Of a DNA stretch of 64,000 bases, positions 1-23,460 are shown piece after piece. Made by a program: the position numbers and the translations under genes. Position 1 is the stretch's first letter, and every line of letters begins with the position of its first letter. The stretch spans positions 44,702,001-44,766,000 of the forward strand of contig OX638156.1 of assembly GCA_951804945.1 (NCBI GenBank), given 5' to 3'. Below the pieces are notes generated by a model. That model ran no database searches and was not told where the DNA came from. It worked only from the letters and a program-made list of their open reading frames with translations. Source of the stretch: Podarcis cretensis (Eukaryota).

Positions 1-225
1 ATATTATTATAAATACCTACACTGCTGTAGACCTTTGAATGAGGTTAGTGTCCGATTGTACATAGTTGTAAAATAGCAAACAGGCCTAAACAAATAGAAG
101 AGAAACAATGACTATAATTCAGTATTTTAAAACTGAAGTTCTTCAGAAAATTTTCATCTCTGCCAGATCACTGTGAATTAATGTGCAAGCCTCACTGTTG
201 AGACATACTCATGTAAACTCTAATA

Positions 226-451
226 CAGTGGTACCTCGGGTTAAGTACTTAATTCGTTCCAGAGGTCCGTTCTTAACCCGAAACTGTTCTTAACCTGAAG
301 CACCACTTTAGCTAATGGGGCCTCCCGCTGCTGCTGTGCCGCCAGAGCACAATTTCTGTTCTCATCCTGAAGCAAAATTCTTAACCCAAGGTACTATTTC
401 TCGGTTAGCAGAGTCTGTAACCTGAAGCGTATGTAACCCGAGGTACCACTG
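226..451. mobile_element. Tc1/mariner (Tigger/pogo-like) MITE, 226 bp
   Basis: TIRs CAGTGGTACCTCGGGTTA / TAACCCGAGGTACCACTG, TA on both sides (224-225, 452-453). A close copy in the opposite orientation lies at 41816-42041. Confidence 0.9.
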
Positions 452-1240
452 TACAGCAGTACTGTGGTATTTCTTTTTCTGCTATCCCAATTTACTACTG
501 CACCTCACTTGAACATACAACACAAAGTGTTTAAAAATACTGGAAAGAACATACTTGGCTACCTGTGTGTAGTGATTGCAACCCAAAACCCATCATGTAG
601 AGCCTAGTTTCACAAAATGAAACGACCACAGAGAACTACAGGAGTGAGTTATAGAAGGCTGTTCTTCCTAATTCAACAGTGTCAGGTACATAATGCACCC
701 TTTATGGCTAAAAGTTTATTTTAAATGCATATCAAGAAGATGGAGAGCTAGAAAGCAAATGCAAAATGGTATGTGGGGTTCAGTTATAAATTAATACCGG
801 CAGGCTAAACTGCCTTCATGAAAAGAATATGAATCTTAAAACCCATTGCTGCTACAGAACAGATAAAAAGGTATGAAGGTATATAAGCATTTGCTGTGAA
901 GCACATACTTCCTCAAAATATGACAATAACACTAGTAAAATACAAGTTGAAAACTAAAGAAAATGTTGTTGTAACATGCTAATCCATAATCAATATGAAT
1001 CTGTCTCATACTAGGTCATACAGTTGGTCTGTTTAGTACTGTTTGTTCTGACTGGCAGCAGATTATCCTGAGTCTGTAGCAGAGAGAAGTTTTTTTTCCA
1101 TCACCTGCTTTCTGATTCTTTTTAAGTGGAGATGTCAGGTATTGAATATAGTGGTCCCTTCTGTGTGCAAACAGTTGCTCTGCCATGGAGCAAGCCTGGC
1201 TCTTAGTCATACATGCATAAAGCAACACAATTGACATCAT

Positions 1241-1460: not shown

Positions 1461-2528
1461 ACTAACAATGAAGAACAGGTGCTTGCTTGCACAAATGTAT
1501 GTGATATCTGCCCCGTGGAGGGATTTGGGGCACTAAAAAGTGCACCCCAGATATATTTCCTGATCTGGACCATGACTAGCATCCACTACGGACATACTGA
1601 GGAGCAAGGTTTTGCAGGTGAATGATGTCTAGTTGCATTTGCTTAGGAAAAGCCACCAAAGTTGAACATTCAGTCATATTCTCTTGAAAAACTAATGTTG
1701 CTTTTGTTTGCTATGATAAGTACTATCCTGCAGTTGCAGTTGATAAGGTATAGAAATGTGTAGCACATCAAGTGTATTTCATGTTGTCAGATTCCCCCCC
1801 CCTCTTTTCCTGAAAGAAACATGGTTATAACCACAGTTAATTCTGAATGGTAGTGTTCATTATCCAATTGTAGGAAAGATTAGTTAACAAGCTACAAAAA
1901 TGAACACGTTACTAAATCGTTGGCATAAGGAGAAAAAACAGCTGGATCGTTAAAAAGCCTCGCAATTAGAGTGATGAAATACATTCCAGCTGAGTTCATT
2001 TCATAAACTCACAAAATTCTAAAGAAAAAAGTATTGGTAACAGGGAAAAAATAGCATCTCTCATTACCTGCATGTTTACAAGCAATTTCTGCATTCCTAA
2101 ACGTTCATGCTGAGCTTCCACACTTTGGTGAAAAGTTCAAAGTTCACATTTGGTCCAATCAACAGGCAAATAATCTAGGCTCTTTATGCCCCCAAGACTA
2201 AGGCAGTTATTAGATGAAGGGACATCATCATATATGAAATGCCCTGGCGGGCAAATTCTACTACAATGCATTTTTTCCATGAAGGAATGCCCATGAAAAT
2301 TTTACACCAGAACTGTAATATTTATCTGAAATTTCAGTAGGCATTGGAACAGATTTTTACTCAATACTTTACTTCTTGTGAAATCTACAGTGATTTTTTT
2401 GGCATTCTACTTCAATTTAACGTGCTTTCCGCAAAAAGGGAAGTGTAATTTCCTAATCTGCCTAAAATTCAACACAGATATATCACCTCATCTCAGCCTT
2501 TTGTAATTTATCTGAACTAGTCCACACT

Positions 2529-2636
2529 AGTCCTGATAGTCTGCTATAAACAGATTAGAGGGAATACAAATACTTTAACCTCATAAACAAAGTGTTTGTA
2601 TTTCCTCTAATCTGTTAATAGCAGACTATTAGGACT
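2529..2636. repeat. 48-bp inverted repeat (hairpin) with 12-nt loop
   Basis: Arms 2529-2576 and 2589-2636 are reverse-complementary at 44 of 48 positions. Confidence 0.9.
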
Positions 2637-3141
2637 CTCCATCAGAGAAGATTAAGGACCATTTTACAAGAAAAAAATTAGCAATCTCCAGGAATTCTGA
2701 ACAGCTTGTCATTACTGATACTCTGCGTAAACATTTGTTTTTCACAAGAAATGTAATGAAGGAATTTCAATTTCTTAGAAATTTGCATGGTTATTGTGTC
2801 CACACACAGCCCATATTTAAGTTCTCAACTTCACATCATTATGCAGTTTAGGGCAGATTAAAATAAACAATTACAAACTTGATAGAAGTAGGCACTGGCC
2901 TGGTTCACACATCACTTTAACCAGGGGTGAGGGAACTTTCAGCTCAGTGGACCATATTTTTATCTCTTCTACTTCCGTGGCCCAACTTTAAAAGGTGCTG
3001 GGACTACTCAGCTTCAGTCATCTGATGCCATAATGATTGACAATGGGTTCTGAGCTGCATTTCCCAAACAACTAACAATCAAAACAAAATAAAAAAAATT
3101 CCTTCCAGTAGCACCTTAAAGACCAACTAAGTTAGTTCTTG

Positions 3142-3179
3142 GTATGAGCTTTCGTGTGCATGCACACTTCTTCAGATAC
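3142..3179 (-). ncRNA. Minimal type I hammerhead ribozyme (minus-strand copy)
   Basis: Exact reverse complement of 3416-3453. Confidence 0.8.
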
Positions 3180-3415
3180 ACTGAAACAGAAGTCACCAGA
3201 CCCTTCTATATAGTGAGAAGGTGGGGAGGGGTATTACTCAGAAGGGTGGTGGGATTGGGTGATTGGCAGATAGCTGTGATGAGCCTGTTGACGACTCTTA
3301 ACGACTGCAATAGGTTTTTAGCTATCTGCCAATCACCCAATCCCACCACCCTTCTGAGTAATACCCCTCCCCACCTTCTCACTATATAGAAGGGTCTGGT
3401 GACTTCTGTTTCAGT

Positions 3416-3453
3416 GTATCTGAAGAAGTGTGCATGCACACGAAAGCTCATAC
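3416..3453 (+). ncRNA. Minimal type I hammerhead ribozyme
   Basis: GUAU-CUGAAGA-A-GUGUG-CAUG-CACAC-GAAA-GC-UC-AUAC. It has the CUGANGA and GAAA core, stem I GUAU/AUAC, stem II GUGUG/CACAC and palindromic AGCU in place of stem III. Predicted cleavage is after C3449. Confidence 0.8.
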
Positions 3454-4369
3454 CAAGAACTAACTTAGTTGGTCTTTAAGGTGCTACTGGAAGGAATTTT
3501 TTTATTTTGTTTTGACTATGGCAGACCAACACGGCTACCTGTCTGTAACTGGAACTAACAATCAGCCAGCTGTTGGGCCCCTGGGAGGTGCTGCACAAGC
3601 AGCTTTGTAAGCACTGCCAATTGGCAATACCTGCAAAGCCTGCTTTTCCCAACCCCACCTTTACCTACCCCCCACCTGATGTTATATATGCTATTAGTTG
3701 TAGGGCAGGTGGGTGTGGCTTGGTCAAAACAGCCTCCCAGTCTGAATGAGGAAGCCTGTGAGGTCAAATTAGTCCTACAGGCTGAAGGTGGTTCCCCACC
3801 CCTGATTTAAACCATAGTTAAACTACACTATTGTTTGAAGTGTGCTGGCACATGTGGCTAAAATCATTGGCACTTTGCTCCTCTGCTGTGCTGCCAAGAT
3901 ATAAGCCATGGTTTAGCTGACCCTGGCTCAAAGTTTGTTTCTTCTCTTTGCAGTGAAACAAATGACAGGACTGGGTTGGGATGCAACTCTTACAAAATTC
4001 TCTCTAACACCAATTACTACAGAAAATAAAACTGTGTTTTACACAGTTACATGTCTATCTTGTCAACACAACAGAAAGATTATTGTTTCATTGGCATACT
4101 TCTCCACATCACCATATATAATGTGGGGCATTTTCATACGGAAAAAAATGAGTAAGAGAGGACATAATAGTAATGTATATAATTTTGAATGGGGTAGAAG
4201 AATAGGATAGAGTGTTTTTCACCCTCTCTTCAGCATGTTTTAAACCCCATGGTGAGCTACATAGGCTTTAGTCTCAAGCATTGTTGTCAACTACTATTTT
4301 GTATGATCACAAAAGGGGCAACAGAAAACATCATGTCTCTTTCTCATTCCCCTCTTATACCCTCTAGCT

Positions 4370-10084: not shown

Positions 10085-10420
10085 AGGGGCACCAAATTGT
10101 CCCCTACATGTCATGTGATGCCCCCTGGTGTGTGCTGGGCAGGGCGCGCTGAGGGCAATCTCCATGCTTGCTCATCCCAGCCACAGCTTGGCAGCCCAGG
10201 AGCTGGGCTGTGGCTGGGATGAACAAGCATGGAGATCACCCTCCATGTTTGTCCCAGCAGCCACCTGGCTCCTGGGTTGTTGGGCGCGAGGCTGGGGCAC
10301 ATGGAGGTCTCCCGGCAGCAGCCGGGGGAGACAGCCCCCTCAATATTGGGTTGGGGGTTTCTGCTGCCTCCTGCCAAAAAATACTGGGAGAGCTGAAGCC
10401 CCCTCCGCCTGGTCACCCTG
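10085..10420. mobile_element. Probable GC-rich non-autonomous DNA transposon with internal 30-bp inverted repeat
   Basis: Arms 10158-10187 and 10207-10236 (1 mismatch). Ends in TGGTCACCCTG; left terminus not resolved. Confidence 0.45.
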
Positions 10421-12667
10421 TATTTCCATTAAACTGAAGTTCTAGGCAGCTTACAAAGTTAAAAACCAATTTATGATACAATATGAATGCACACATTCAA
10501 AAACATAGCTGTTTTAACCAGATTAAAAGCCAGCAGCTATCTTTTTTATTCATCCCCTTTTATTTGCCTAGTGGTTTTCTCTTAAGGAAGCTTTAGGACC
10601 TGGTACTTTCAATGGACTGTGAATAAGTAGCACTGTTGTTTGCACCAACTCTATTGTTAAGTTTTCCATAATCATAACTATGGGATATTTCTGACTCTTG
10701 GAGGGAGGGCTTGGTACAGAGGAGCAATAAAAAATGATGTTCCTTTCTTTTCTTCTTACTTTCTTCTGCTGAAAGAATCTTAAAAATCAGAATAAAATAT
10801 GAAGTAGGATAAAAGGTGGGCCTTAATGAGGCCCTCTGTTACTCTACCACAGTACCTCTTAAAAACAAATAGAAAAAGGTGCTTTGTCAGCAGGAGAACA
10901 CAATAGAATTAGTGCCTGGAAAGTTGGTGAATCTTGAGGCACAGTTAACATCCAAGATGAAGAGATTCTAAGAGTGCTCGAGGGTGGTGTGTAAGGTGGA
11001 GAATACTAAGGATGTTATTTGTCCCCTCACTACAAAAATAATTTTCAGGATTTCAAAGAGACTTTAACATTGCTTGAACATAAATAAATGAATAAACTTA
11101 ACTGAGCTTGCAAAACAGGCATTCTATTGTTGTGGCTTTTCTGCAACATGAGAGATTTATGTGTGTGAGAGAAAATATAATAGGCAAGAACCAGGGAAAA
11201 AGTATTGATGGGGAGAGATTGAAGCACACACTTAACACAAAGGACTAGTGGCCTGACAGTATGAGCTCCATCATATGTTTAAGCAAACCAGCCCAACAGT
11301 CCATCTTTCGCAGTATTGTCTAGGCCAATCCAAGGTTTTATTTAGGGAGAGGTTGTTCCCAGCTCCACTACCTGATATCATTTTAACTGAAATGCCAGAG
11401 TTTAAACCAGGGACTTCTGTATACATACAGAGCATCTCTTCATAGTGTTTTTTGTTTGTTTGTATTTTGCAGCTGATTAAGATACTCTGTTTTTCAGCAG
11501 TGGTTTGGAAGAAGAATGTGCAGATTAAACAAAAGGATTTGTTGTGCTGCTGCTGCTGCTGTTAGTAACTGTTATTCATTGATTTGTTGTGAGGTGTGAT
11601 CCTATTTTAAGGATTGCATTATTTTATGGATTTAATGTGTTATTTTTGTCATATTTGGCTCTGTAATAAACTATTCTGTGTCTTGTGCAAAGGGTGATAT
11701 ATACCGGTAAATCATCTAATTAAATAGTAATTATAGTAATCATTATCTAATTTTTTTTTTAAGTCCACAAAAACAACATATGCTCTTTATCTAATCTGTA
11801 CCCTCTACCACAGATTGCTTTCCTCTGTACCTTTTCCAGGGCTAAACTGTAGAACAGATAGGGTGAAGAACAGATAATAAATAACAACAAACAACATTGT
11901 ATGAGTTCCTTAGCTGGCAAATTGAAAAAGAAATGGCCAACAGCCAACTGTGGTTTAATAGGCAACGATGTTACAAAGATTTTCCACATGCCATCTAGTC
12001 TAGTGAACCATTTGTAAAACATTTAGAGGAACGCTACCTCTTGTCATGCTCTGCAAGACAGAGGTGTTTCAACACAGCGAGGATACCTGTCACCCCCTCC
12101 CCAAATTACTTAGATACAGAAACACATTTTTAATCTTCATAGATTACACTTAAATCACAGTGGTCTTAGATATATGTTAACACATTTTGAAGAAAGCACA
12201 TCAATTTCCAGTCACTTCTAAGTTAGAATTAGAAAGGTGGGGGTCTTCTCTGTGGGGGGTGGGGGCAGGGATGGAATGTTAGTGAAAAGCCCAGAAGTGA
12301 AGAGGGAACGGAACTCAGCTGGTAGGAGAAAAAACAATACTGCTTAAAATGAAATGGTTGTTTTCTGTACACAGTCATTTTATAAAATGTACAGTAAAGC
12401 TTTTATATGTAAATTATCCAAACACAAAAACCTCTCCGTTCAAATTGAATTGAGAATAGCTTGTAGTAGAGTGCTTTAGAGAAAACGTGCTTAAAATGAA
12501 CAAACTAGAGAACCACCAAGACTGAATTTCTGTTTCAAGGAAGAAGAGAAAACTCTATAAAAATGGGCTTGTGTGATCTGCTTTTATTTGAGAAATAAAA
12601 GACATTAATTTACTTCTAAATACATATCTCATTTTTTTTCTACTGGCAAAATGTCTGTCATTATGAT

Positions 12668-12851
12668 CAGTGGCGGAGCTCCATGCACTGGGGGGGCAGA
12701 GAGCAGGCAGGGGTGGGGCTGGCGCAGGTCCTGGGGGTGGGGCGGGAGCAGGGCACCTAGGACGAGCGGAGGGCAGCCACAATGGTACCCTGCTGGGATT
12801 GCGCTGCCGGGGGCAGTGTGCTCCCCCCACACTCCTCTTCCTCTGCCAGTG
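12668..12851. mobile_element. hAT MITE
   Basis: Termini CAGTGGCGGAG / CTCTGCCAGTG. 8-bp TSD ATTATGAT / ATTATAAT. Confidence 0.75.
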
Positions 12852-12929
12852 ATTATAATGGGTGTTATAGATTCATGAGTGCCTATACATTCCTGAAACA
12901 TGGGAATGGTTCCATATATACCAGATGGT

Positions 12930-13480
12930 AGAATGCAGGTGGGTTGCTGTTCAGCCCCATGGCACTTGATCAATGGGGTCCTTCAGGGTTCTGTTCTACC
13001 TCCAATGCTATTCAATATCTATATGAAGTTGCTGGTTGAGGTCATTAGGGAAATGGTAGTAGGGTGCCACCAATATGTGAATCATACCCAACTCTATCAT
13101 TGTCATCAGAGTCAGGTGATGCAATATAGGTTCAGGATCAGTGTCTGCCTGCTTTGATGGAATAGATGAGAGAGAATAAACTGAAACTATGACTTGGTAG
13201 GTTCCTGGAAATTAGGGAAATGGCCTGTTCTTGATGGGTAGCACTTCCCCAAAGGGAGCAGGTACATAGCCTGGGGTCCTCAGTGGCACCTTTTCACAGC
13301 TATAGCTACTTCATCAGATATGGCTGTTCCTGAGCACTGATATGACATTTCTGCAAAGACTACTCTAAAATTGGAAATGACAGAAAAAGTAGTGGCTTTT
13401 TTCTGAGTGGTGTCACCAGCTGGAAACATGCTACACCAGTTCTTAAGGGTATGAACTCACTGCCAATCAAGCCATCCAAT
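12930..13480 (+). mobile_element. Degenerate L2 LINE ORF2 fragment
   Basis: Translates GVLQGSVLPPMLFNIYMKLLVEVIR...CHQYVNHTQLY, a decayed GVPQGS...YADDTQLY RT core. Confidence 0.8.
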
Positions 13481-13523
13481 GTTAGAAGGGTGAGACTGGA
13501 GGAGGCTGGAACACCACCACGTT

Positions 13524-13536
13524 CTATCTATCTATC

Positions 13537-13583
<47 letters not shown>

Positions 13584-13620
13584 ATCTATCATCTATCTAT
13601 CTATTTACTTACTTACTTAT
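13524..13620. repeat. (TATC)n microsatellite grading into (TTAC)n
   Basis: Directly visible. Confidence 0.95.
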
Positions 13621-13817
13621 TTTTGTTAGGACAACTAAAATGCTGCACAAAAGTAGTAAGCAACCTTTAAGTTCCACATTATTTTTTTCCAATCTAGACA
13701 CCAATAAGAAAAAGCAGGAGAGTGAAAAGCTACACATGGAAAAGCCAGAAACATTCTTAAGATGCTGGGTTATGTGTGTCAAAGGGCGAACAGCAATTGT
13801 TACTTGACCCATTAGAA

Positions 13818-13953
13818 CAGGCATAGGCAAACTCTGGCCCTCCGGATGTTTGGGACTATAACTCCCATCATCCCTAGCTAACAGGACCAGTGGTCAGGGA
13901 TGATGGGAATTGTAGTCCCAAACATCTGGAGGGCCAGAGTTTGCCTATGCCTG
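13818..13953. mobile_element. Palindromic hAT MITE, 136 bp, young
   Basis: TIR CAGGCATAGGCAAACTCTGGCCCTCC / GGAGGGCCAGAGTTTGCCTATGCCTG. Perfect 8-bp TSD CATTAGAA at 13810-13817 and 13954-13961. Confidence 0.93.
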
Positions 13954-13968
13954 CATTAGAACATGGTA

Positions 13969-14177
13969 CAGCCAGCATGAAACAGTAGTTAGAGTGCTAG
14001 ACTAAGACCTAAAAGACTAGGATTTGAATCCTGACTCATTCATGAAACTCACACTGGATGACCTTGGGCAGTCACTGCCTCTCAGTCTATTCTACCTCAC
14101 AGGATTGTTGAGAGGATAAAATAACCATGCATGCTATCCTTCTTGGAGGAAAGGTAGGTTATAATAAATATAATAAA
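13969..14177 (+). mobile_element. MIR/CORE-like SINE
   Basis: tRNA-like head, GACCTTGGGCAGTCAC, ACCTCACAGGATTGTTG, (TAAA)n tail. Confidence 0.7.
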
Positions 14178-15574
14178 CAACCTGAAATCTGCGTACAGAA
14201 CTAATTAAGTCTGAATACAAAAGTTTCAGCTGGCTTGAATAAAGTTATTAACTTTGTTGTACTTTTGAATGGACTAACATGGGTACTTGTGATTTTTCTT
14301 GATTTAGGTGATGATTTTAAACTTCTGTGCACACTGCTTAACTTCATACCAGCTAAGAAAGCAGGTGGAAACAAATTTAAATTAACCAAATCAAGTAATG
14401 CATTGTGGGCTAACTAAACAGCTTGTGGAAGCACACAAAACTCCATCAGCTTCAAATTAGAATTTGTCTCCTCCACCCTTCTTGAAAGACATAGCTGGAA
14501 GAACACAAAAATGGCATCCCATATTACACAAACCTATATAACACTAGTGAGCATCTGCTTAATGAGCAAAGCAAATACTCCAGACAATAAAATATTAACA
14601 ATATAGGCCAATACTAAAAAACAACTATAAACTGAATACTGGCTCTGTAAATAAACTGAAGACAAAGTAAAAAGCTAAGTTTAAAACAATTTTGCGTGAA
14701 GTGGAAGAAAAACCATAATTACTGCAGCCTGGCAATGTTATAAACTAGTGCCATCAGAAGCAAAAATGGCTTTCTGTTAATGCTGCTCATCCCTATAAAA
14801 ATTAAAGCAACTGTTGTGAACTATAGCTAAATTAACTGTATTTCCTTTTTAAAGCTGAGCTATACTAAACCAAGCAGGACATAATGCTGATTATAGAGAC
14901 AGAAGGTATTTGAAGTACAACATCAGTAAATGTAACTAGCTGTAAATTTACTAGAATGCAAATTAACCATTTCCAGAGTGCACAAGAGGCCTTATTTCGA
15001 TGTTATGAGTATGGTGTGTTTGCCATGAAATACAGTAACTCAGTTTATATGTTGGTGACCCTTCACCACAAACATCTGTATGCAACAACTGCATGAATTG
15101 GATGGATTATGTGGCATGTTCTCATGCAAAACATAATTTATCCTAGTGAAGTTCAACAGTTGTGTAAGGTCCTATAACACAGTTGTGGTTACAAGTATCA
15201 GTCACCGTGTACAAGTTTTTCTTTTTCTTGGAAGTTCTCACACCAGACTTGCTACCAAACCTTGAAATTGGAGAATACAACTGTGGAGAATACAAGGGTC
15301 ATCCATACATCTTCTTCTCTCCCTCTAGGAGGTAGTCCAGAGAGAGGGAAGGAAGCAAGTGAGAAGTTCCCCGGGGGGGGGGGGGAGGTGTGCTTGAATG
15401 TACTCAGGAATGGGAGATCACTGACAGCATCTTCCCAAGGACTTCCCCAAGTCTGGGACTGATTGGCATATTATTGCAAGAAGGTATAGCGACACAGAAA
15501 GTTGCCTTATATTAGGTCAGGCTTTTGCCTATATAGACAAGTACTGTATACTCTGACCTGCAGCAGTTCTTCTC

Positions 15575-15690
15575 AGAGGTAAGTCTCACTCTGTTGAGTA
15601 GGCCTTGTTCCCAAGCAAATGTGCATACTGTGTGTGTAGCCTTAGGCTACAATCCTATACACTTACCTGGGAGTAAGCCTCAATGAAAAA
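15575..15690. mobile_element. Tandem fragments of a short palindromic MITE family (probably PIF/Harbinger-like)
   Basis: GTAGCC-TTA-GGCTACAATCCTATACACTTACCTGGGAGTAAG junction. Related pieces lie near 43810-43970, 49580-49655 and 58655-58720. Confidence 0.5.
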
Positions 15691-18600
15691 GCGACTTGAA
15701 ATGTGCATGAGGAGGGAGAAACCTCACTTCATTTCAATTCACTAATGTATACATAGCCTAGATGCATATTTCACAAATACAAATTGCTGAAGTTTCTTTA
15801 ATGTACACTCAGCAGCGGGCATCAACAGGATAGATGATTTTTTTTTGTTAAATAGTAAAGGATGTCACATACATTTCTACATAAGTGCTCTCTTTGTATC
15901 TGACACACTACGCATGCCTTTTGCTTGCTTTTGCATTTGGTAGCTGCACCAGAAACCCCAGGATCCTAAGCTTCCCTTCATCTCTCTGCAAAATCTATTA
16001 ACTCCATCAAGGTTCTGCTTGCACAAGTCCACAAAGGATCAATGCTGAAAATGTTTGTTCTTTCAATAGAGTTACATGTTATCTTATATCAGAGAAATAG
16101 TCACAACTATATATCTTTTCTAGAGCATGTAAGCTGGGGTATAGATACAAAATTATGTGAAGTCCATAACCCCCTGGAGGGGAGAGGAAGGGGGGGGATC
16201 CTTTAGTGTATTAAATTATACTTGTTCATTTTTACTTAATTTGTTTGTGTAAATATTTACTGAAATGTACTGGGAAAGGAGAATTCATGCTCATGGGTTT
16301 TGTAAATCAAAACACTTTAAATACACAACAAATCACTTCAACTAAGAGCAATCAAAATGAAATTGTATGTGCTCATACAATTTCCAAAGAGAAAATGTTA
16401 AAAAGGTGATGTAGTGATTTTCAGCTGGGATATAAACATACATGCTTAATGACACCTACCCACACACCTACACTTCGCAGTACATGTACAAAGATGGCTT
16501 GGAAGGTGTTGTGGTTGAAGAAAGAGGACATACAGCCTCTATCAGATGAGAGGGGATTTGTCAGAGATTAATAGAATTCCATTGTAATATCCATATCTCA
16601 CAAAGACATGCTCTGACAGGACCCAATTACTTTCAACAAGCTGGGCCTACAACACAGACCCCCTGAACCGGAATGGCCCTCAAACCTGTATGCTTTCGTT
16701 CAAGCAGATAACACCAATGGGTTTCTCTCTGTGATCACTGCCTAAGTTAAATGAGTTAATCTCATTTTCCAGATGAATTGTTATTTTGTCTCCTGCAGGC
16801 TGTGATTACTGGATAAAAGTATTGTGTTAACAGAAGGGCCGCGCTCTTTTCAGTAGAGAATTCCACAGCCAGATAACCAGTCAGCCAGTGAGGACTCTCC
16901 CCCTTTCTTCCAGTATGAAGTAAGAGAATGGCACAAACAGGGGGTGGGGAAAAACTATAAAATAGAACAGATACATATTTCAGATAATTACATAATTTCT
17001 CAGGAGTTCAAAGGGACCATTTAACGTCCTATCTAAGCGTATTAAAGTTATGCTCTAACGCCACCTCTGTGATACATATTGAAAGATGCGTACTGACTTC
17101 CCAGGGACATTTTCCTTTTTTCTACCTCTGATGCTATTACCATTGTAAACTATTATGGAATGGGGTAAATACATCAGATTAACTATGTTTATGTGTTACA
17201 TCTCTTTCTACAATTTCAGTGGATTTCTGATTTTGGTCCTAGAACTTGCTAGCCATCTCTTGTAAACATGCACGGTATCATATTTTTGTAAGATGAAGAA
17301 CTTTATTGCTGACATGCTCTAAAAGGAACAGTGTCCTGTTCTCCTCTTTGAAGTTGTTTGGCTGGTGGTGGGTGGGGAACATGATTATGATGGGGAGGAT
17401 GGTATATAGGAAGAATTCATTCTATACACTGTCTGCAGAATGAATGTGATGGAGTGTGCAACCTTTTAGAAGTGCAATAAAGTATTTCCCCTACCCCAAC
17501 AAGCATTGTCTGTTCTCATTGAAGTATTTTAATTGACTGCACAGCTCCAGCCTTATCTGTAACTATTATTTTATATATTAATGCATTGACATTATACTTT
17601 TAGGATTCAAAACACATCCATATTATCATGAAGGAGGGGGACAATACAGAAGGAAGGTTAATGGAAGAGGTTTCATTGATGTCTAAAGTACTCAAGACAA
17701 CATCATACTGTTGAATCAGGCATTATATTCTACCAAAAATAATTGCAATAATAATGAGTCACAGGTTCCTGTAGTTTGAATCATGATATCGCCTAAGCTT
17801 CAGTGAGTGTGAGCTTTCTAATTACCAGTCATTTTACATGGAAACAGTAATTTGCATGACAATGTGTTTATATGTCACTTAACTTCCTATGCATATTCCC
17901 TTAATGTTAGCAACCTAACATAATGAGTTTGAAATCAATACTCTGATTGAATGCTGATGTTGTTTCAAGAAATGAAAACATTCTCCAAAAGAAACAAAAT
18001 CTCTCTCACACACACACAATTTTCTTTTCACAATGCCTCAGAAACACATACAGATGAAATTTCAAATTGCTAAGTGCTTTTATTTCTTTAATGTATATTA
18101 TTGACCTTAGAAATTGTTCCGTTTTTTCTAAACAAACAAATGAAAGAAAACAAAGTGAAATAGATTTTTTTTTTTTTAAAACGACAGCTTTATTAAGATA
18201 GCCTGAATTACATTATTCCCTTTTCTTTTAAAGCTTTGTCAACACGCAAATACTCCATAAAAAAGTAACTGGTGCATTCAGGAGCAATTCACTTTGCAAA
18301 TAAAGCAGTATAATGTCAGTGGTTTGAAATGGTTCTGTCTCTGTTGCTTTCCATGTCAATGCACTGGCAGTCTTGCCTGAATGCAGCTAGTCAATAGAAA
18401 GTAAATAGAGCATTTCCTGACTTCACCTGGCAGCACTAAAAATGCCCAGCTTAGAACTACACAGTTTAATAGTTTTTGCAGTAAAGATGGACTCTGTGTA
18501 GTTCAAGCCATTTTTTTAACAACCACGAATAACCATTTGTTCAAAGGTTTAACAGGAACATTCAACAGCAGGAATATAGCAAACTGCCTTGTCTGTCTAG

Positions 18601-19574
18601 TCTACTACTGCATTGGTCCACCTGGGTTTCAGACAGAGGACCTAACTAGAAAATCCAAGAACTGAACCTGGGATATTTCACATGCCCCAAGTGTTGATAC
18701 ATTAATAACTTTGTTTTTGCTACTACAATTTCATAGTTTAGAAGTACACAGTTGTTAAGCACTTTAACATGGCACTTTCCACATGCAAAATAATCTTTTT
18801 TCATCATATAACTTGGTCTCTGACACAAACAGTGCTGTTTATTTTTCTCCCTCTCCCAAAGTTATTAGCTGCAGTTTTAATGCATTGCTATTTCATTGTT
18901 ATGTTACCTTAATCCTTAAACCTCAAGACTGGTGTACAGATGCTTTAAGTAAATGAATAAATTAAAAAAATTGACTGTACTTGGGAAGAAGTATTTTGAT
19001 GTGCCCACATTTGTTAACTGAAGAGTTATATGGAAAAGTATAAATAAATAGGGAAGATATCTTTTTCTAATAACTCCTGGATACAAGTATAGTGATTTTG
19101 CTCCATTTCCCTGGAGGGTGGGGAGTAGCAGCTGTTGTACAACTATTATCATGTTTTGCCATCAAAAAAACACACAACAACAAAGTGAAACAATAATTTG
19201 CAATGTCCAAATCTGAAATTGCTTTATTAAAGCCAATGATACAAAACGAAAAGCCACTGCAATTGTTCTCATTTGATATACTAAGTAAGTAAAACAGAAT
19301 TTACGTAAGGGCAGGAAAAAAAATTAAGGGTTACCATATTGGACTATGACATGGGCCTAGCGAAGGGGGGGGGCCAGGGGGCAGCTGCTCCCCCTAGATC
19401 CACAAATATTATTGAAAAACATTGAAAGTACTCAATTATCTGAGGTTCTGCCCCCACTAGCAGAAGACTGCCCCTCACAATGTCCTATTTACGGGGTATT
19501 TTTACTCGTGGTTTTCCAAGAATGGGTCAACAACTTTCATTTCGTAAAAAGAGCTAAACAACTTTGAATTCCCA

Positions 19575-19925
19575 AAAAAGTTCAGGTTTCAAATCCCACA
19601 CAGCCCTGACTCTCAGTGTAATCTACCTCACTGGGTTGTTGTGAGAATATTGTGGAAGGGGAAGAACCAGGTACGTCACCTTGAGCTCCTTGGAGGAAAG
19701 GTGGGATTAGGGTTGCCATATTTCAATAAGTGAAAATCCGGACACAAAAGTTGTTGAGCTTTTTCTTTTGGGCAAAACTTTTTTTGCATGGGTTGCCATA
19801 CGTCCAGATTTCCTCAAACGTTAAAGTGATTTCTGTCTGGGCGCTGTTACAGATGAATACAGTCTATGTTCAGGAAATTCTGGACGTATGGCAACCCTAT
19901 ATAGTGGGATATAATTTTAATAAAA
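19575..19925 (+). mobile_element. MIR-like SINE remnant interrupted by a DNA transposon
   Basis: CTACCTCACTGGGTTGTTGTGAGAAT...TTGGAGGAAAGGTGGGAT, resuming as GTGGGATATAA after the insertion. Confidence 0.6.
19708..19899. mobile_element. hAT (Blackjack-like) MITE
   Basis: TIR TAGGGTTGCCATA / TATGGCAACCCTA. Internal third copy GGGTTGCCATACGTCCAG near 19790. GTGGGAT is duplicated in the flanks. Confidence 0.8.
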
Positions 19926-20820
19926 CCCCAAATGTGGCAACTTGCATTGCTGGGACCACAATGGAAATGACCATTAAATGTGAATTTATTTCTGATTTTT
20001 TAAAAATGTTATTTGATTGCAGATTTAGGCAATGTGGCATTTAAAATTGCTATTTTAGCCACCTTTTTTTGGGGGGGGGGCTTGTAAATTGTCAGGTGGT
20101 AGGATATGTGTGCAAAAATAGGGTAACTAAATGAAATAAATTTGAGTCTCCTTTCCCGAAACTTAAGCTTCTGTCATCAGGAAACTAAAGCTGGGTTTGG
20201 ATTATATATTGATAAAACTCTATATTACTGTTATATATAAAAATAACAATGTTATAATATTGTTATTACTATATTAAAACTCTATAACATACTAAATAGA
20301 TAAAAGACTTGTGCGAACCAGGTTAGTTGTTGTTATTATTATTATTGCTATTGGTTTTATTATTTAAAGGAAAATAGCAAGACAAGATGTCACCTCTGGC
20401 TAAAATACCAGCTTCATTAAACTTCTTTGGTAAAACCTCATGGCAGCAGTATTTCTTTGGAATACTCAGAGAAAGATAGCATAGCAATAAGATTTTATGG
20501 GAATTACAAGCTTGCTTGATTCCTTTGTTTTATTGTAATGACACCATTTATAAAAAATCTATTTAATCCATTCTTTCCATAAATAACTCAGAGTCAGGAA
20601 CTCATTGTGCACCTCAGTATTATTTTCATATTGTCCTAAAACAATCAAGATGCATTTATAAAGTGATGTCAGAAGCTTATTAAATCCCCTAACTTCACTA
20701 GTTCTGTGTAGTATGATCCCAAACTGGTCATCAATATATAGATTGAACTTCCATGCATGACAAATTGGTAATGTTTAATGATTGTCAATTGGTTCACTTT
20801 TGGCTATGGGAAAAAAATTA

Positions 20821-21335
20821 CCATATTTTTCGCCCTATAGGACACAGTTTTTCCTCTCCAAAAATGTAGGGGAAATGTGTGTGCGTCCTATGGGGCGAAT
20901 GCAGGCTTTCGCTGAAGCCTGGAGAGCGAGAGGGGTCGGTGCACACCAACCCCTCTCGCTCTCCAGGCTTCAGGAAGCTCTGCGCAACCCTTGGGAGACC
21001 AGCACGACTTCGCGCCGGGCTCCCAAGGGTTGCACAGAGCTGCCTGCATTCCCGGGCTTCGCGCAGCTCTGCGCAACCCTAGGGAGCCCGGCGCTGAAGA
21101 GCGTGCCTGGGCTTCGCACAGCTCTCCGCAAGCCTGGGGAGACCGGTGCGGCTCCCTAGGCTTGCGGATAGCAGGCTGTTCTCGGGGCTGGGGTCGGGGG
21201 AAGCTCGAGCTTCCCCTGTGCCAGCCCTGTGCCTGGGGGGGGGGAGAAATAATTTTTTTTCTTTATCCCCCCCCCAAAAAAAAACACCTAGGTGCATCCT
21301 ATGGGGCGGTGCGCCCTGTGGGGCGAAAAATACTG
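20821..21335. mobile_element. Tc1/mariner (Tc2-like) MITE with GC-rich internal repeats
   Basis: TIR CCATATTTTTCGCCCTATAGG / CCTGTGGGGCGAAAAATACTG, TA flanks. Shares internal blocks with 29721-29978. Confidence 0.85.
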
Positions 21336-23428
21336 TAATCAGTGATACAGGATGGAACATAATATAGGTATGCTAATGTAGACTCTGAAGATAAACCTGA
21401 GGAGGCACATTTGTGCAACAGATACAAGAGGACCCTGATGCCTTGTCTGTAATTGCTTTTGCATTTTAACTTAAACTGCACGTTACTCAAATTCTTGGTT
21501 CAGCTAGAGGTTTGCACATGTCCTGAGACTATGTATAATTTAGCTTTGGTTTGAGTAACATTCTGGCGATGGTGCATGTAAATCAGGCAAAGCTTAAGCC
21601 TGGTGTCATTGACTGAGGGAAGCCCCAGTACTCTTTGCCAATAAACCTCCCTAGAGTGAATGCTGAACAGGAAGTTTTACCTATGATGAATGAATCACCT
21701 TAATGCATGACTAATAAATTCTGGAATCAGTGCCATATCTAATGCAGATAAACATCTAAAATCAGCTATTAATTATCCTTTATGACTAATGGATTCTCCC
21801 AATAAGCATATTCTGCCCTGATTAAAGAACCTTTGTTTGCATTTCTGGAGAAATTCAAGCTCAATCCCTGTAGTGTGCATAGTCATATTCTTGTTTGCCT
21901 GATCTGATTGGTGGAAGCCCTTGTGAATATGCCAACTATGTGGTGGGAATTTTAATTACTATGAGCTATAACAGCTTTGTTAACCTATGACCTTATGCCC
22001 ATCCTGGACATTAACAAGATAAGTTTGCAACTGGCCGCTGCTTTTTCTCTAAGACTAGACAGGTTTTGGATCTCCAAATTCTCCAGATTTGGGGATGCAT
22101 CCAAAAGGCTGCTCTATGCCTCCCCTTTTCAAGATACCCTGACCCAGTGTCCCAATGTGGGAGAGGGCTTCTAATGCTTCCTCAAGCTTTCATTAATATT
22201 CGTTCATCTCATGTCCTTGTTCCCTTGTCTCTGATCCATATGGGATATTTTCTTCAAAACTAATCAGGGCACCTTCCAGAAAGTGCATGTCACTATTAGA
22301 AAGTGTCTTTCTAAAGAAATAATATTTTATTCTTTTACCTTATTTGAGGGTACCATAGAACTCATCTTAGGGTCAGACATGGCCATTCAAGGCCTGAGTT
22401 TTATATAGTCCTGGTAAAGAACAAATTGACAACCATTTGGCTTTCAGAATACAAGAATAGCACCTGATTTGTTCTTCTAAATGAATCTCCTCCCCACCCA
22501 AAGCAATACCTGACTCTCTGCTGAGACCAGTGAAGTCAGCCACTACTGGGCACCTTCATGTTGCGATGAAATAAGCAAGAACCATTTCTCCATGTTCATA
22601 TTTCTGCAGGGGAGGACAGCATTGTATGCCACCACTTCTTTTACTTCTTTCTAGCTTGCATATTTCACAGCTCTTTTGTGCTCTTGCAAGTCCCACACTC
22701 CAACTATTGGCATATAAACTTTTCGCCTTCTTGGTTTATTTTGCCCACTTATCATCCTGCTGGATTTAAACACCTGCCCATAGCTCTATATAAGGTATAT
22801 ATTGCCTGTCTCTACTTCCCTGCATCTCTGACAGCACTTAGGGTTCCTGACTGGATTTTGGAGGGGGTAGGGGAAGGCTGCCCTGGAGGTAGGAAAAAAC
22901 ACTGGACATTACACACACACTTTATTCCCTGTATTTAAGGCACTTTGTGGAGGGAGCCAAAGAAATCACTGAGCTAGCAAAAGCTCTTGGTGAGCTCTGT
23001 CTTCAATCCAGATTGTCATTTGGAAAACACATTTTTTTCTTAAACACATTCCCTCCCCTTTCCATCACTCTATTCTCATCTGTATCCAAAGTGATATGTA
23101 CTGGAATGGGATTTTGAACTTCCTAATCCAGCATTTTAGTCTGTCTCTAAGGCTGTCCCCACCCCACCCCCACTTTTTCCTGAAATAATTCATCTAGTTC
23201 TTCAAATGAAATTATATAATAAATAATTCCTCCAGCCCAGAATCTCCAGTCTCAACTCCTGCGTCTCAGCACTCTAGTCTCCCTTGGTCACCTTTTGTCC
23301 TCACCTCCACAGACTTGCTCCAGAAGAATGAAGGCCATCAAGGAGTTGCTGCAACCCTGTTCTGGCACCATCATTCTCCAGATCTCATGGTATGCTTAAT
23401 ACACATATATTTATTTTGGCCTTCAACA

Positions 23429-23460
23429 CTGTGTGTGTGTGTGTGTTTGTGTGTGTGTGT
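23429..23460. repeat. (GT)n microsatellite
   Basis: Directly visible. Confidence 0.9.

What the first reader, a model, noticed from the sequence alone, without database searches (positions are those of the whole stretch)
3079..3552. Penelope-like palindrome carrying two divergent hammerhead ribozymes
Seen: two arms of about 196 bp, identical except one base in a poly-A run, a 44-nt spacer, an 11-bp TSD, and an intact hammerhead core on each strand (3416-3453 +, 3142-3179 -). Established: Penelope-like elements carry minimal hammerheads in their pseudo-LTRs and often insert with an inverted pseudo-LTR; the palindromic 4-nt stem III implies cleavage as a dimer. Inference: a read-through transcript of either strand holds one sense ribozyme plus its perfect antisense, so it can fold into a long dsRNA that masks the ribozyme and could feed ADAR or Dicer. 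That would be a self-silencing ribozyme cassette. The element class is known; this regulatory behaviour is my hypothesis.
Basis: partly seen in the sequence, partly recalled or inferred. Interest (0 to 1): 0.75.

Follow-up and report, generated by a model that had tools for sequence, protein, structure and literature searches.

The report
Back-to-back Penelope ends in a lizard
This 471-base mirror-image sequence is a real insertion, missing from a related species, made of two back-to-back ends of a very common repeat that is likely a Penelope-type jumping gene of lizards, each end carrying a minimal self-cutting-RNA motif predicted to be inactive on its own; the shape, and editing or small RNAs from such hairpins, are already described, so it is ordinary.

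Summary
Observation confirmed; the regulatory reading is not supported. The palindrome, 44-nt spacer, 11-12-bp target duplication and two minimal hammerheads are there. A related species has the empty site. The spacer is not foreign: 40 of its 44 nt are upstream element sequence. The insert is therefore two 5'-truncated copies joined head to head, one ending at each of the family's two 3' ends, 38 nt apart. All 15 joints shown (of 712) are other head-to-head copies, 14 ending beside a TATA/initiator-like motif, a likely RNA start. Best mechanism (about 55%): reverse transcription primed from both cut target ends; fold-back priming is the rival. Opposite-strand minimal hammerheads 100-700 bp apart, inverted pseudo-LTR with tail, siRNAs from Penelope inverted repeats and heavy editing of lizard Penelope are all published. 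Minimal hammerheads tested so far are inactive as monomers, so masking adds little. No RT/GIY-YIG ORF could be tied to the family. Expression, cleavage and editing were not tested. The scan found this architecture before in other genomes.

The parts
3070..3081 (.). Left copy of the target-site duplication (11-12 nt; last base ambiguous)
   Evidence: empty site in run X6 keeps one copy: 483 nt absent = 471 + 12
3082..3315 (-). Left element copy, 234 nt, 5'-truncated, no tail; outer end at the family's inner 3' end
   Evidence: loose-end hot spot before 3082 in 4 of 4 runs; shared continuation behind 3315 in the rows shown for 3 of 4 runs
3142..3179 (-). Minimal type I hammerhead motif, left copy; predicted cut after 3146 on the minus strand
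   Evidence: activity untested
3180..3212 (-). TATA-like (3212-3207) and initiator-like (3184-3180) motifs, 30 nt apart, facing outward (left)
   Evidence: promoter function inferred
3276..3315 (-). Loop part 1: upstream element sequence present only in the longer left copy
   Evidence: table 7 (agreement 0.79-1.0 of the continuation behind 3315)
3316..3319 (.). Four T at the head-to-head junction, matching neither copy's family continuation; likely untemplated
3320..3552 (+). Right element copy, 231-233 nt, 5'-truncated, with tail
3383..3415 (+). TATA-like (3383-3388) and initiator-like (3411-3415, A at 3413) motifs, facing outward (right); family 5'-end hot spot at 3412-3418
   Evidence: promoter function inferred
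3416..3453 (+). Minimal type I hammerhead motif: stem I 3416-19/3450-53, core 3420-26, unpaired A3427, stem II 3428-41, core 3442-45, palindromic helix III 3445-48, predicted cut after C3449
   Evidence: fits the consensus in the supplement of PMC4209133; activity untested
3434..3550 (+). Short frame starting in loop II, stopped at 3461-63 in this copy; possibly the start of the parent ORF
   Evidence: open in other copies (P0001, P0002, P0006, P0009); link to an RT ORF not found
3513..3552 (+). Tail between the family's two 3' ends (3512/3513 and 3550), plus two further bases
   Evidence: loose-end hot spots: 3512 and 3550 in 4 of 4 runs, 3513 in the rows shown for 3 of 4
3553..3564 (.). Right copy of the target-site duplication

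Best explanation
The feature is one insertion of two 5'-truncated end copies of a high-copy repeat, likely a Penelope-like retroelement, joined head to head between an 11-12-bp target duplication, and it was likely made by reverse transcription primed from both cut ends of the target. Shown: both copies point their 3' ends outward; the left ends at the family's inner 3' end and the right at the outer one, 38 nt further (the tail); their 5' ends differ by 40 nt, which forms the loop; a relative has the empty site. Inferred: the element's endonuclease cut both strands 11-12 nt apart; each 3' OH primed a cDNA on element RNA at one of two internal start sites; both cDNAs stopped early and were end-joined with four untemplated T. 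The two hammerheads are passengers of the pseudo-LTR. If host transcription crosses the site, the RNA would form a hairpin of about 194 bp that removes the hammerhead fold and would be an ADAR (perhaps Dicer) substrate. That is a by-product, not a selected switch. Odds: Penelope-like by-product about 0.9; double priming given that, about 0.6.
For: Empty site: X6 record 17 joins 3069 to 3553 with 670 and 748 aligned bases on the two sides. High copy: 11,820-23,779 contig records laid per run, depth concentrated on the element, flank depth at the single-contig level (depth is no copy number). Two 3' ends at 3512/3513 and 3550 match the two RT start sites that bound the tail in the anole element, which cuts and extends both strands in vitro and is predicted to be a dimer (PMC11167929). 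The 15 joints shown of 712 are all head-to-head with varied junctions; 14 of 15 have one side at 3412-3418 or its mirror, beside a TATA/initiator pair of which shuffles give 1.8 per window. An unrelated contig's frame (P0001) reads 3144-3260 then 3410-3511: a second palindrome with another junction. Published architecture: inverted 5'-truncated copy and 30-40-bp tail at one end (PMC8557442); 8-10-bp TSDs and TATA/Inr in pLTRs (PMC3846280); dual min-HHRs 100-700 bp apart on opposite strands (PMC4209133).
Against: No RT or GIY-YIG ORF was tied to this family: two protein searches gave only five spurious or chimeric frames over short copies, plus five unrelated proteins. The arms carry the same letter at three mirrored sites where the family varies in 12-54% of depth, which fits one template and so also fold-back copying. 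The 3' end of the left copy can form a 7-bp DNA hairpin, as long as at only 6 of 178 other possible ends, a hint for fold-back. No contig spans the whole insert; the two junction-crossing pieces hold only 16 (X5) and 25 (X2) element bases, under the tool's 31-base bar. The extra G 5' of 3416 in many copies can be a cap-derived base or a subfamily with a 5-bp stem I; not resolved.
Confidence: 0.55

Rival explanations
1. Same Penelope-like by-product, but the second arm was copied from the first cDNA by fold-back (self-priming), as proposed for inverted pLTRs in Adineta vaga; only the tail came from a second priming event.
For: Arms have no substitution and share letters at three family-variable sites. 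A 7-bp hairpin (-1.6 kcal/mol, DNA parameters) sits at the left copy's 3' end, 8 nt from where the arm copy begins; 6 of 178 other ends have one as long, 19 of 178 are as likely paired. Model in PMC3846280 (passages).
Against: Faithful extension from that hairpin would write seven specific bases before the arm; four T are seen. The test was made after seeing the junction. The tail cannot be copied from the left cDNA. Family junctions cluster at the likely RNA start on either arm.
Confidence: 0.27
2. One reading: a selected, self-silencing ribozyme cassette in which the antisense arm masks the hammerhead and feeds ADAR or Dicer to regulate the element or a host gene.
For: On either strand the antisense copy is transcribed first, and folding of the full insert gives probability 0.0 for stems I and II, against 0.55-0.95 in an RNA from 3413 to 3552. 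Lizard Penelope is heavily edited.
Against: The insertion is absent in a relative whose flanks differ by 12 substitutions in 1,418 bases, so it is young. Junctions vary between copies. Monomeric min-HHRs are inactive. Stem I is also lost (probability about 0.0) in several single-arm contexts without any antisense arm. Penelope siRNAs from inverted repeats do not silence efficiently. No host gene was identified.
Confidence: 0.04
3. A non-autonomous palindromic mini-element (MITE-like or retrozyme-like) that moves as a unit.
For: Short, non-coding, long inverted repeats, flanked by a TSD.
Against: Ends are asymmetric (tail on one side only). The junction differs from all 15 joints shown and from P0001. 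The hammerheads are opposed, not tandem, whereas non-LTR retrozymes are defined by tandem units (10.64898/2026.07.22.740005).
Confidence: 0.04
4. Assembly artefact (fold-back chimera) or a later inverted duplication of a single insert.
For: No laid contig spans the insert; arms nearly identical.
Against: Both outer ends coincide with family end hot spots, the TSD matches the empty site exactly, the loop is genuine upstream element sequence, and the arms differ in one A-run.
Confidence: 0.04

Closest known systems
Insertions of endonuclease-positive Penelope-like elements with inverted pLTR, tail and TSD (Pen2a_Av and others, PMC3846280; overview PMC8557442; passages seen)
   Same: Head-to-head inverted 5'-truncated copy, 37-40-nt tail at one end only, TSD of similar length, TATA and initiator-like motifs in the pLTR
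   Different: Only pLTR parts are present, no ORF; TSD 11-12 against 8-10 bp; parent ORF not identified here
Minimal type I hammerheads of metazoan PLEs (Cervera and de la Pena 2014, PMC4209133; parts 1-2 of 4 and a supplement passage seen)
   Same: 4-bp helix I, long helix II, unpaired base after position 9, G10.1-C11.1, palindromic 15.2-16.2; that paper already reports pairs 100-700 bp apart on opposite strands and motifs in turtle and snakes
   Different: This sequence family was not among the reptile rows seen; cleavage not assayed
Poseidon of Anolis carolinensis, PAc (Frangieh et al. 2024, PMC11167929; parts 1-2 of 4 and three supplements as text seen)
   Same: Hammerhead near a start codon in the pLTR; two 3' ends bounding a tail; outer end 117 nt after the ATG here, against an RT start at 111-118 there
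   Different: ATG lies in loop II (cut at +16) rather than at the start of stem II (cut at +26); the PAc consensus file could not be read, so no direct alignment was made
Penelope inverted repeats as dsRNA sources: siRNAs in Drosophila (PMC3681739, PMC3136932) and hyper-editing in lizard and Xenopus (PMC5625713, PMC10636886); passages seen
   Same: Same predicted hairpin and the same two host pathways
   Different: Nothing shown for this locus; the passages seen do not discuss the ribozyme
L1 twin priming (recalled, not from a call)
   Same: Both target ends prime cDNA, giving an inversion
   Different: L1 inverts an upstream, non-overlapping segment of the RNA; here both copies cover the same 194 nt

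Membership tests
EN+ Penelope-like element | ORF with telomerase-like RT and GIY-YIG endonuclease in the parent element | tested here: inconclusive
   No ORF in the insert; searches with the short frame found only frames over short copies, none with RT; no host genome is held
EN+ Penelope-like element | Inverted 5'-truncated pLTR copy adjoining head to head | tested here: met
EN+ Penelope-like element | 30-40-bp tail at one end only | tested here: met
   37-40 nt at 3513/3516-3552; family ends at 3512/3513 and 3550
EN+ Penelope-like element | Target-site duplication from retrotransposition | tested here: met
   empty site with one copy in X6
EN+ Penelope-like element | Hammerhead motif in the pLTR | tested here: met
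EN+ Penelope-like element | Similarity to a Repbase/Dfam Penelope consensus; clade (Poseidon, Neptune) | not testable with these tools
   No such library; two short motifs gave 0 hits in the supplement of PMC8557442
Minimal type I hammerhead ribozyme | Conserved core, helices I and II, palindromic minimal helix III, NUH site | tested here: met
   consensus row
Minimal type I hammerhead ribozyme | Self-cleavage as a dimer or with protein help | not testable with these tools
   folding only: the lowest-energy dimer pairs the 14-nt stem II palindromes (-25.2 kcal/mol) rather than helix III (-2.5)
Rfam hammerhead families | Score at or above the gathering threshold | tested here: not met
   these models are not expected to fit minimal motifs (own knowledge)
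Non-LTR retrozyme | Tandem units, each with a type I hammerhead | tested here: not met
   copies are inverted, not tandem (definition)
MITE / DNA transposon | Symmetric terminal inverted repeats and a fixed internal structure | tested here: not met
   asymmetric tail; varied junctions

The most novel reading that the evidence does not exclude
These palindromes are a fossil record of the unsolved Penelope insertion cycle: a dimeric RT-endonuclease primes both target strands, one at each internal RT start, and most cDNAs run to a capped RNA start 30 nt behind a pLTR TATA box. Each insert then seeds the lizard genome with two outward-facing promoters making single-arm hammerhead RNAs that could cleave each other in trans, while read-through turns the same insert into a major lizard ADAR substrate.
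Probability: 0.15. Interest if true: 0.55.

Novelty: new member of a known kind. Interest (0 to 1): 0.17.

Why it matters
As a single locus it matters little. As one clean, young example with an empty site and no substitutions between arms, it helps test how Penelope-like elements build their inverted ends, a step still not validated experimentally (PMC11167929). It also offers a concrete reason why lizard Penelope is so heavily edited: a copy like this folds on itself without needing a neighbour.

Tried and rejected
Rfam: 0 hits at gathering score; the 10 matches at E<=10 are 9 microRNA-model and 1 snoRNA-model hits, all below gathering score, most explained by the long hairpin. No whole genome is held, so no copy census. 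Sequencing runs: no RNA holder listed among 24 rows; this says nothing about expression. No RNA reads were laid, so expression, editing and RNA ends are open. An 18-nt tail motif gave 17 metagenome and 2 viral loci; none of the 19 extends beyond 22 matching bases, so they are chance. Host gene: 481 of 743 stop-free frames of 40 aa or more were scanned against Pfam (150 frames of at least 40 aa up to about 13.3 kb; 331 of at least 52 aa beyond); only weak hits (E >= 7e-4), no host exon identified; short exons would be missed. Parent ORF: searches gave 3 and 7 proteins; five are frames over short copies, five are unrelated. Duplex energies of the two outward RNAs were uninformative; BLAST shows at most 14-nt complementary stretches. 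The bacterial promoter scan does not apply. PMC9977147 (passages) had nothing on head-to-head copies. A cut-site hot spot at 3450 was not among the loose ends shown; 2 of the 32 pieces shown begin at 3450-3451, too few to judge. Literature gaps: 'Penelope' + 'twin priming' returned 3 papers, none on PLE insertion by their listing; two searches listed no paper on antisense masking of a PLE hammerhead. These searches cover open-licence papers only. Unseen supplements that may bear on this: the PAc consensus file and figure images of PMC11167929, and file 1 of PMC4209133.

Full report
OBSERVATION. The palindrome is real. The arms (197 and 196 nt) differ only by one base in an A/T run and enclose 44 nt; 37 nt follow the right arm before a 12-nt direct repeat. 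It is the longest inverted repeat within 1.5 kb spacing in the window and the only copy of its family there. A relaxed hammerhead scan finds two hits in 64 kb, both in the arms, against 0.01 in shuffles. Rfam does not recognise them. Each motif has a 4-bp helix I, the conserved core, an unpaired A, a 14-nt palindromic helix II region, a 4-nt palindromic helix III and a cut site after C3449. This fits the minimal-HHR consensus and the turtle row in the supplement of PMC4209133.

WHAT IT IS. Contigs of four public runs (four samples, three studies; 4 of the 24 runs listed) were laid on 2400-4300. Run X6 has one 3,004-base contig that joins 3069 to 3553: the empty site with one copy of the repeat, 483 = 471 + 12 bases absent. 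X9 is consistent with an empty site (88 bases left unaligned at 3553), but this is not proven. X5 and X2 have pieces that cross the left and right junctions by only 16 and 25 element bases, below the tool's bar; no contig spans the insert. Each run laid 11,820-23,779 records, with depth concentrated on the element, so the family is abundant; depth is not a copy number. The host is likely a lacertid lizard: a Zootoca vivipara gene model contains the same sequence, and an unchecked note on this genome says wall-lizard relative.

The other copies define the element's ends. Loose ends pile up before 3082 and behind 3512/3513 and 3550 (24 rows shown of 1,764). So the family has two 3' ends 38 nt apart; the left copy uses the inner one and the right copy the outer one. 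Behind 3315 the loose ends agree with one another (0.79-1.0), so 3276-3315 is upstream element sequence on the minus strand. The insert is a 234-nt copy and a 231-233-nt copy joined by four T. All 15 joints shown (of 712) are other head-to-head copies with shorter arms; 14 have one side at 3412-3418 or its mirror. That spot lies about 30 nt behind a TATA-like box, at an initiator-like motif, and 5 of the 12 'letters between' rows shown carry one extra G on the RNA sense side. I read it as the RNA start with a cap-derived base; a subfamily with a 5-bp stem I is the alternative. This copy extends upstream of that point, so its template would have been a longer, tandem read-through RNA. P0001, from an unrelated contig, translates as 3144-3260 followed by 3410-3511: an independent palindrome with a different junction. 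P0002 and P0009 begin to match near 3416.

HOW IT WORKS. On both strands the sequence that continues from the target duplication is antisense to the element RNA, as expected if each 3' OH of a staggered cut primed a first-strand cDNA. The anole element PAc cuts and extends both strands in vitro, starts reverse transcription at two internal sites that bound the tail, and is predicted to be a dimer (PMC11167929). Double priming followed by end-joining explains the orientation, the one-sided tail, the unequal 5' ends and the four T. I give it 0.55. Fold-back copying (PMC3846280) gets 0.27: the arms are alike at family-variable sites and a weak 7-bp hairpin sits at the left cDNA end (6 of 178 other ends as long), but faithful extension would not give the four T, and the tail needs a second priming anyway. 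Three target bases at 3079-3081 pair with the RNA at the inner start; with one locus this may be chance.

THE REGULATORY IDEA. Folding supports masking: stems I and II have probability 0.0 in the full insert and 0.55-0.95 in an RNA from 3413 to 3552. But stem I is lost in several single-arm contexts too. A single minimal HHR did not cleave in vitro and dimers cleaved weakly (PMC4209133); the PAc ribozyme needed protein, was dispensable for insertion, and left no read ends at its cut site. The putative promoters face outward, so their RNAs would lack the antisense arm. No host gene was identified in 481 of 743 frames scanned, and no RNA reads were examined, so read-through is open. The downstream predictions are already in print for the class: siRNAs that match Penelope inverted repeats and silence poorly (PMC3681739, PMC3136932), and over 40,000 hyper-editing sites in lizard Penelope (PMC5625713; Xenopus).

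MEMBERSHIP AND NOVELTY. Four structural features of endonuclease-positive Penelope-like insertions are met. The defining ORF could not be linked, and the clade is unassigned. It works like, and very probably is, a Penelope-like insertion. Opposite-strand hammerhead pairs 100-700 bp apart were reported in 2014 and the inverted copy with tail is the standard picture. Eight earlier notes of this scan describe the same architecture in other genomes. They are unchecked and not independent support; my double-priming and RNA-start readings were in the notebook before I saw them.

PAPERS SEEN. PMC11167929: parts 1-2 of 4, and three supplements as text (figures not visible, consensus file unreadable). 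PMC4209133: parts 1-2 of 4, and a supplement search. PMC8557442: passages and a supplement search. 10.64898/2026.07.22.740005: part 1 of 5 and passages. PMC3846280, PMC3681739, PMC3136932, PMC5625713, PMC10636886, PMC9977147: passages. L1 twin priming and the repeat labels in 'noticed' are recalled.

VERDICT. Real, young, ordinary. New member of a known kind; interest 0.17.

Noticed in passing
P0003 residues 103-130 (like window 3425-3508): A Zootoca vivipara 'lysosomal enzyme trafficking factor-like' (TMEM251/LYSET) gene model carries an in-frame 28-aa stretch from this element, hammerhead part included; either an insertion in a gene copy or a mis-modelled exon.
   Followed up: partly
window 3412-3418 and mirror 3177-3183: Family-wide 5'-end hot spot at the edge of the hammerhead, with a frequent extra G; depth in the hammerhead bin is 2.7-4.4 times that of the bin upstream.
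   Followed up: partly
window 3434-3550 +: A frame starting in loop II runs 117 nt to the outer 3' end, the distance reported for PAc; this copy has a stop at 3461-63 where 30-41% of family depth has another letter.
   Followed up: partly
P0006 and P0009: Two frames over short copies share the same upstream peptide, which looks like a squamate SINE read in frame (label recalled); the same locus in two samples, or a preferred target.
   Followed up: no
window 2529-2636: Unrelated hairpin element, 48-nt arms 92% complementary with a 12-nt loop, 450 bases left of the finding; present at near single-copy depth in all four runs.
   Followed up: no
window 13818-13953, 10151-10243, 20817-21339, 29708-29991: Further hairpin or TIR-bounded repeats typical of lizard non-autonomous DNA transposons (label recalled); the window is rich in self-folding repeats.
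   Followed up: no
window 224-453, 41814-42043, 59695-59942: Three copies of a 230-bp element with 25-nt terminal inverted repeats, 90-93% alike; Tc1/mariner-like MITE by recall.
   Followed up: no
window 30357-31145 + and 59115-60253 +: LINE remnants: a 262-aa CR1-like frame (label recalled) and frames with a weak RVT_1 hit, E 0.008.
   Followed up: no
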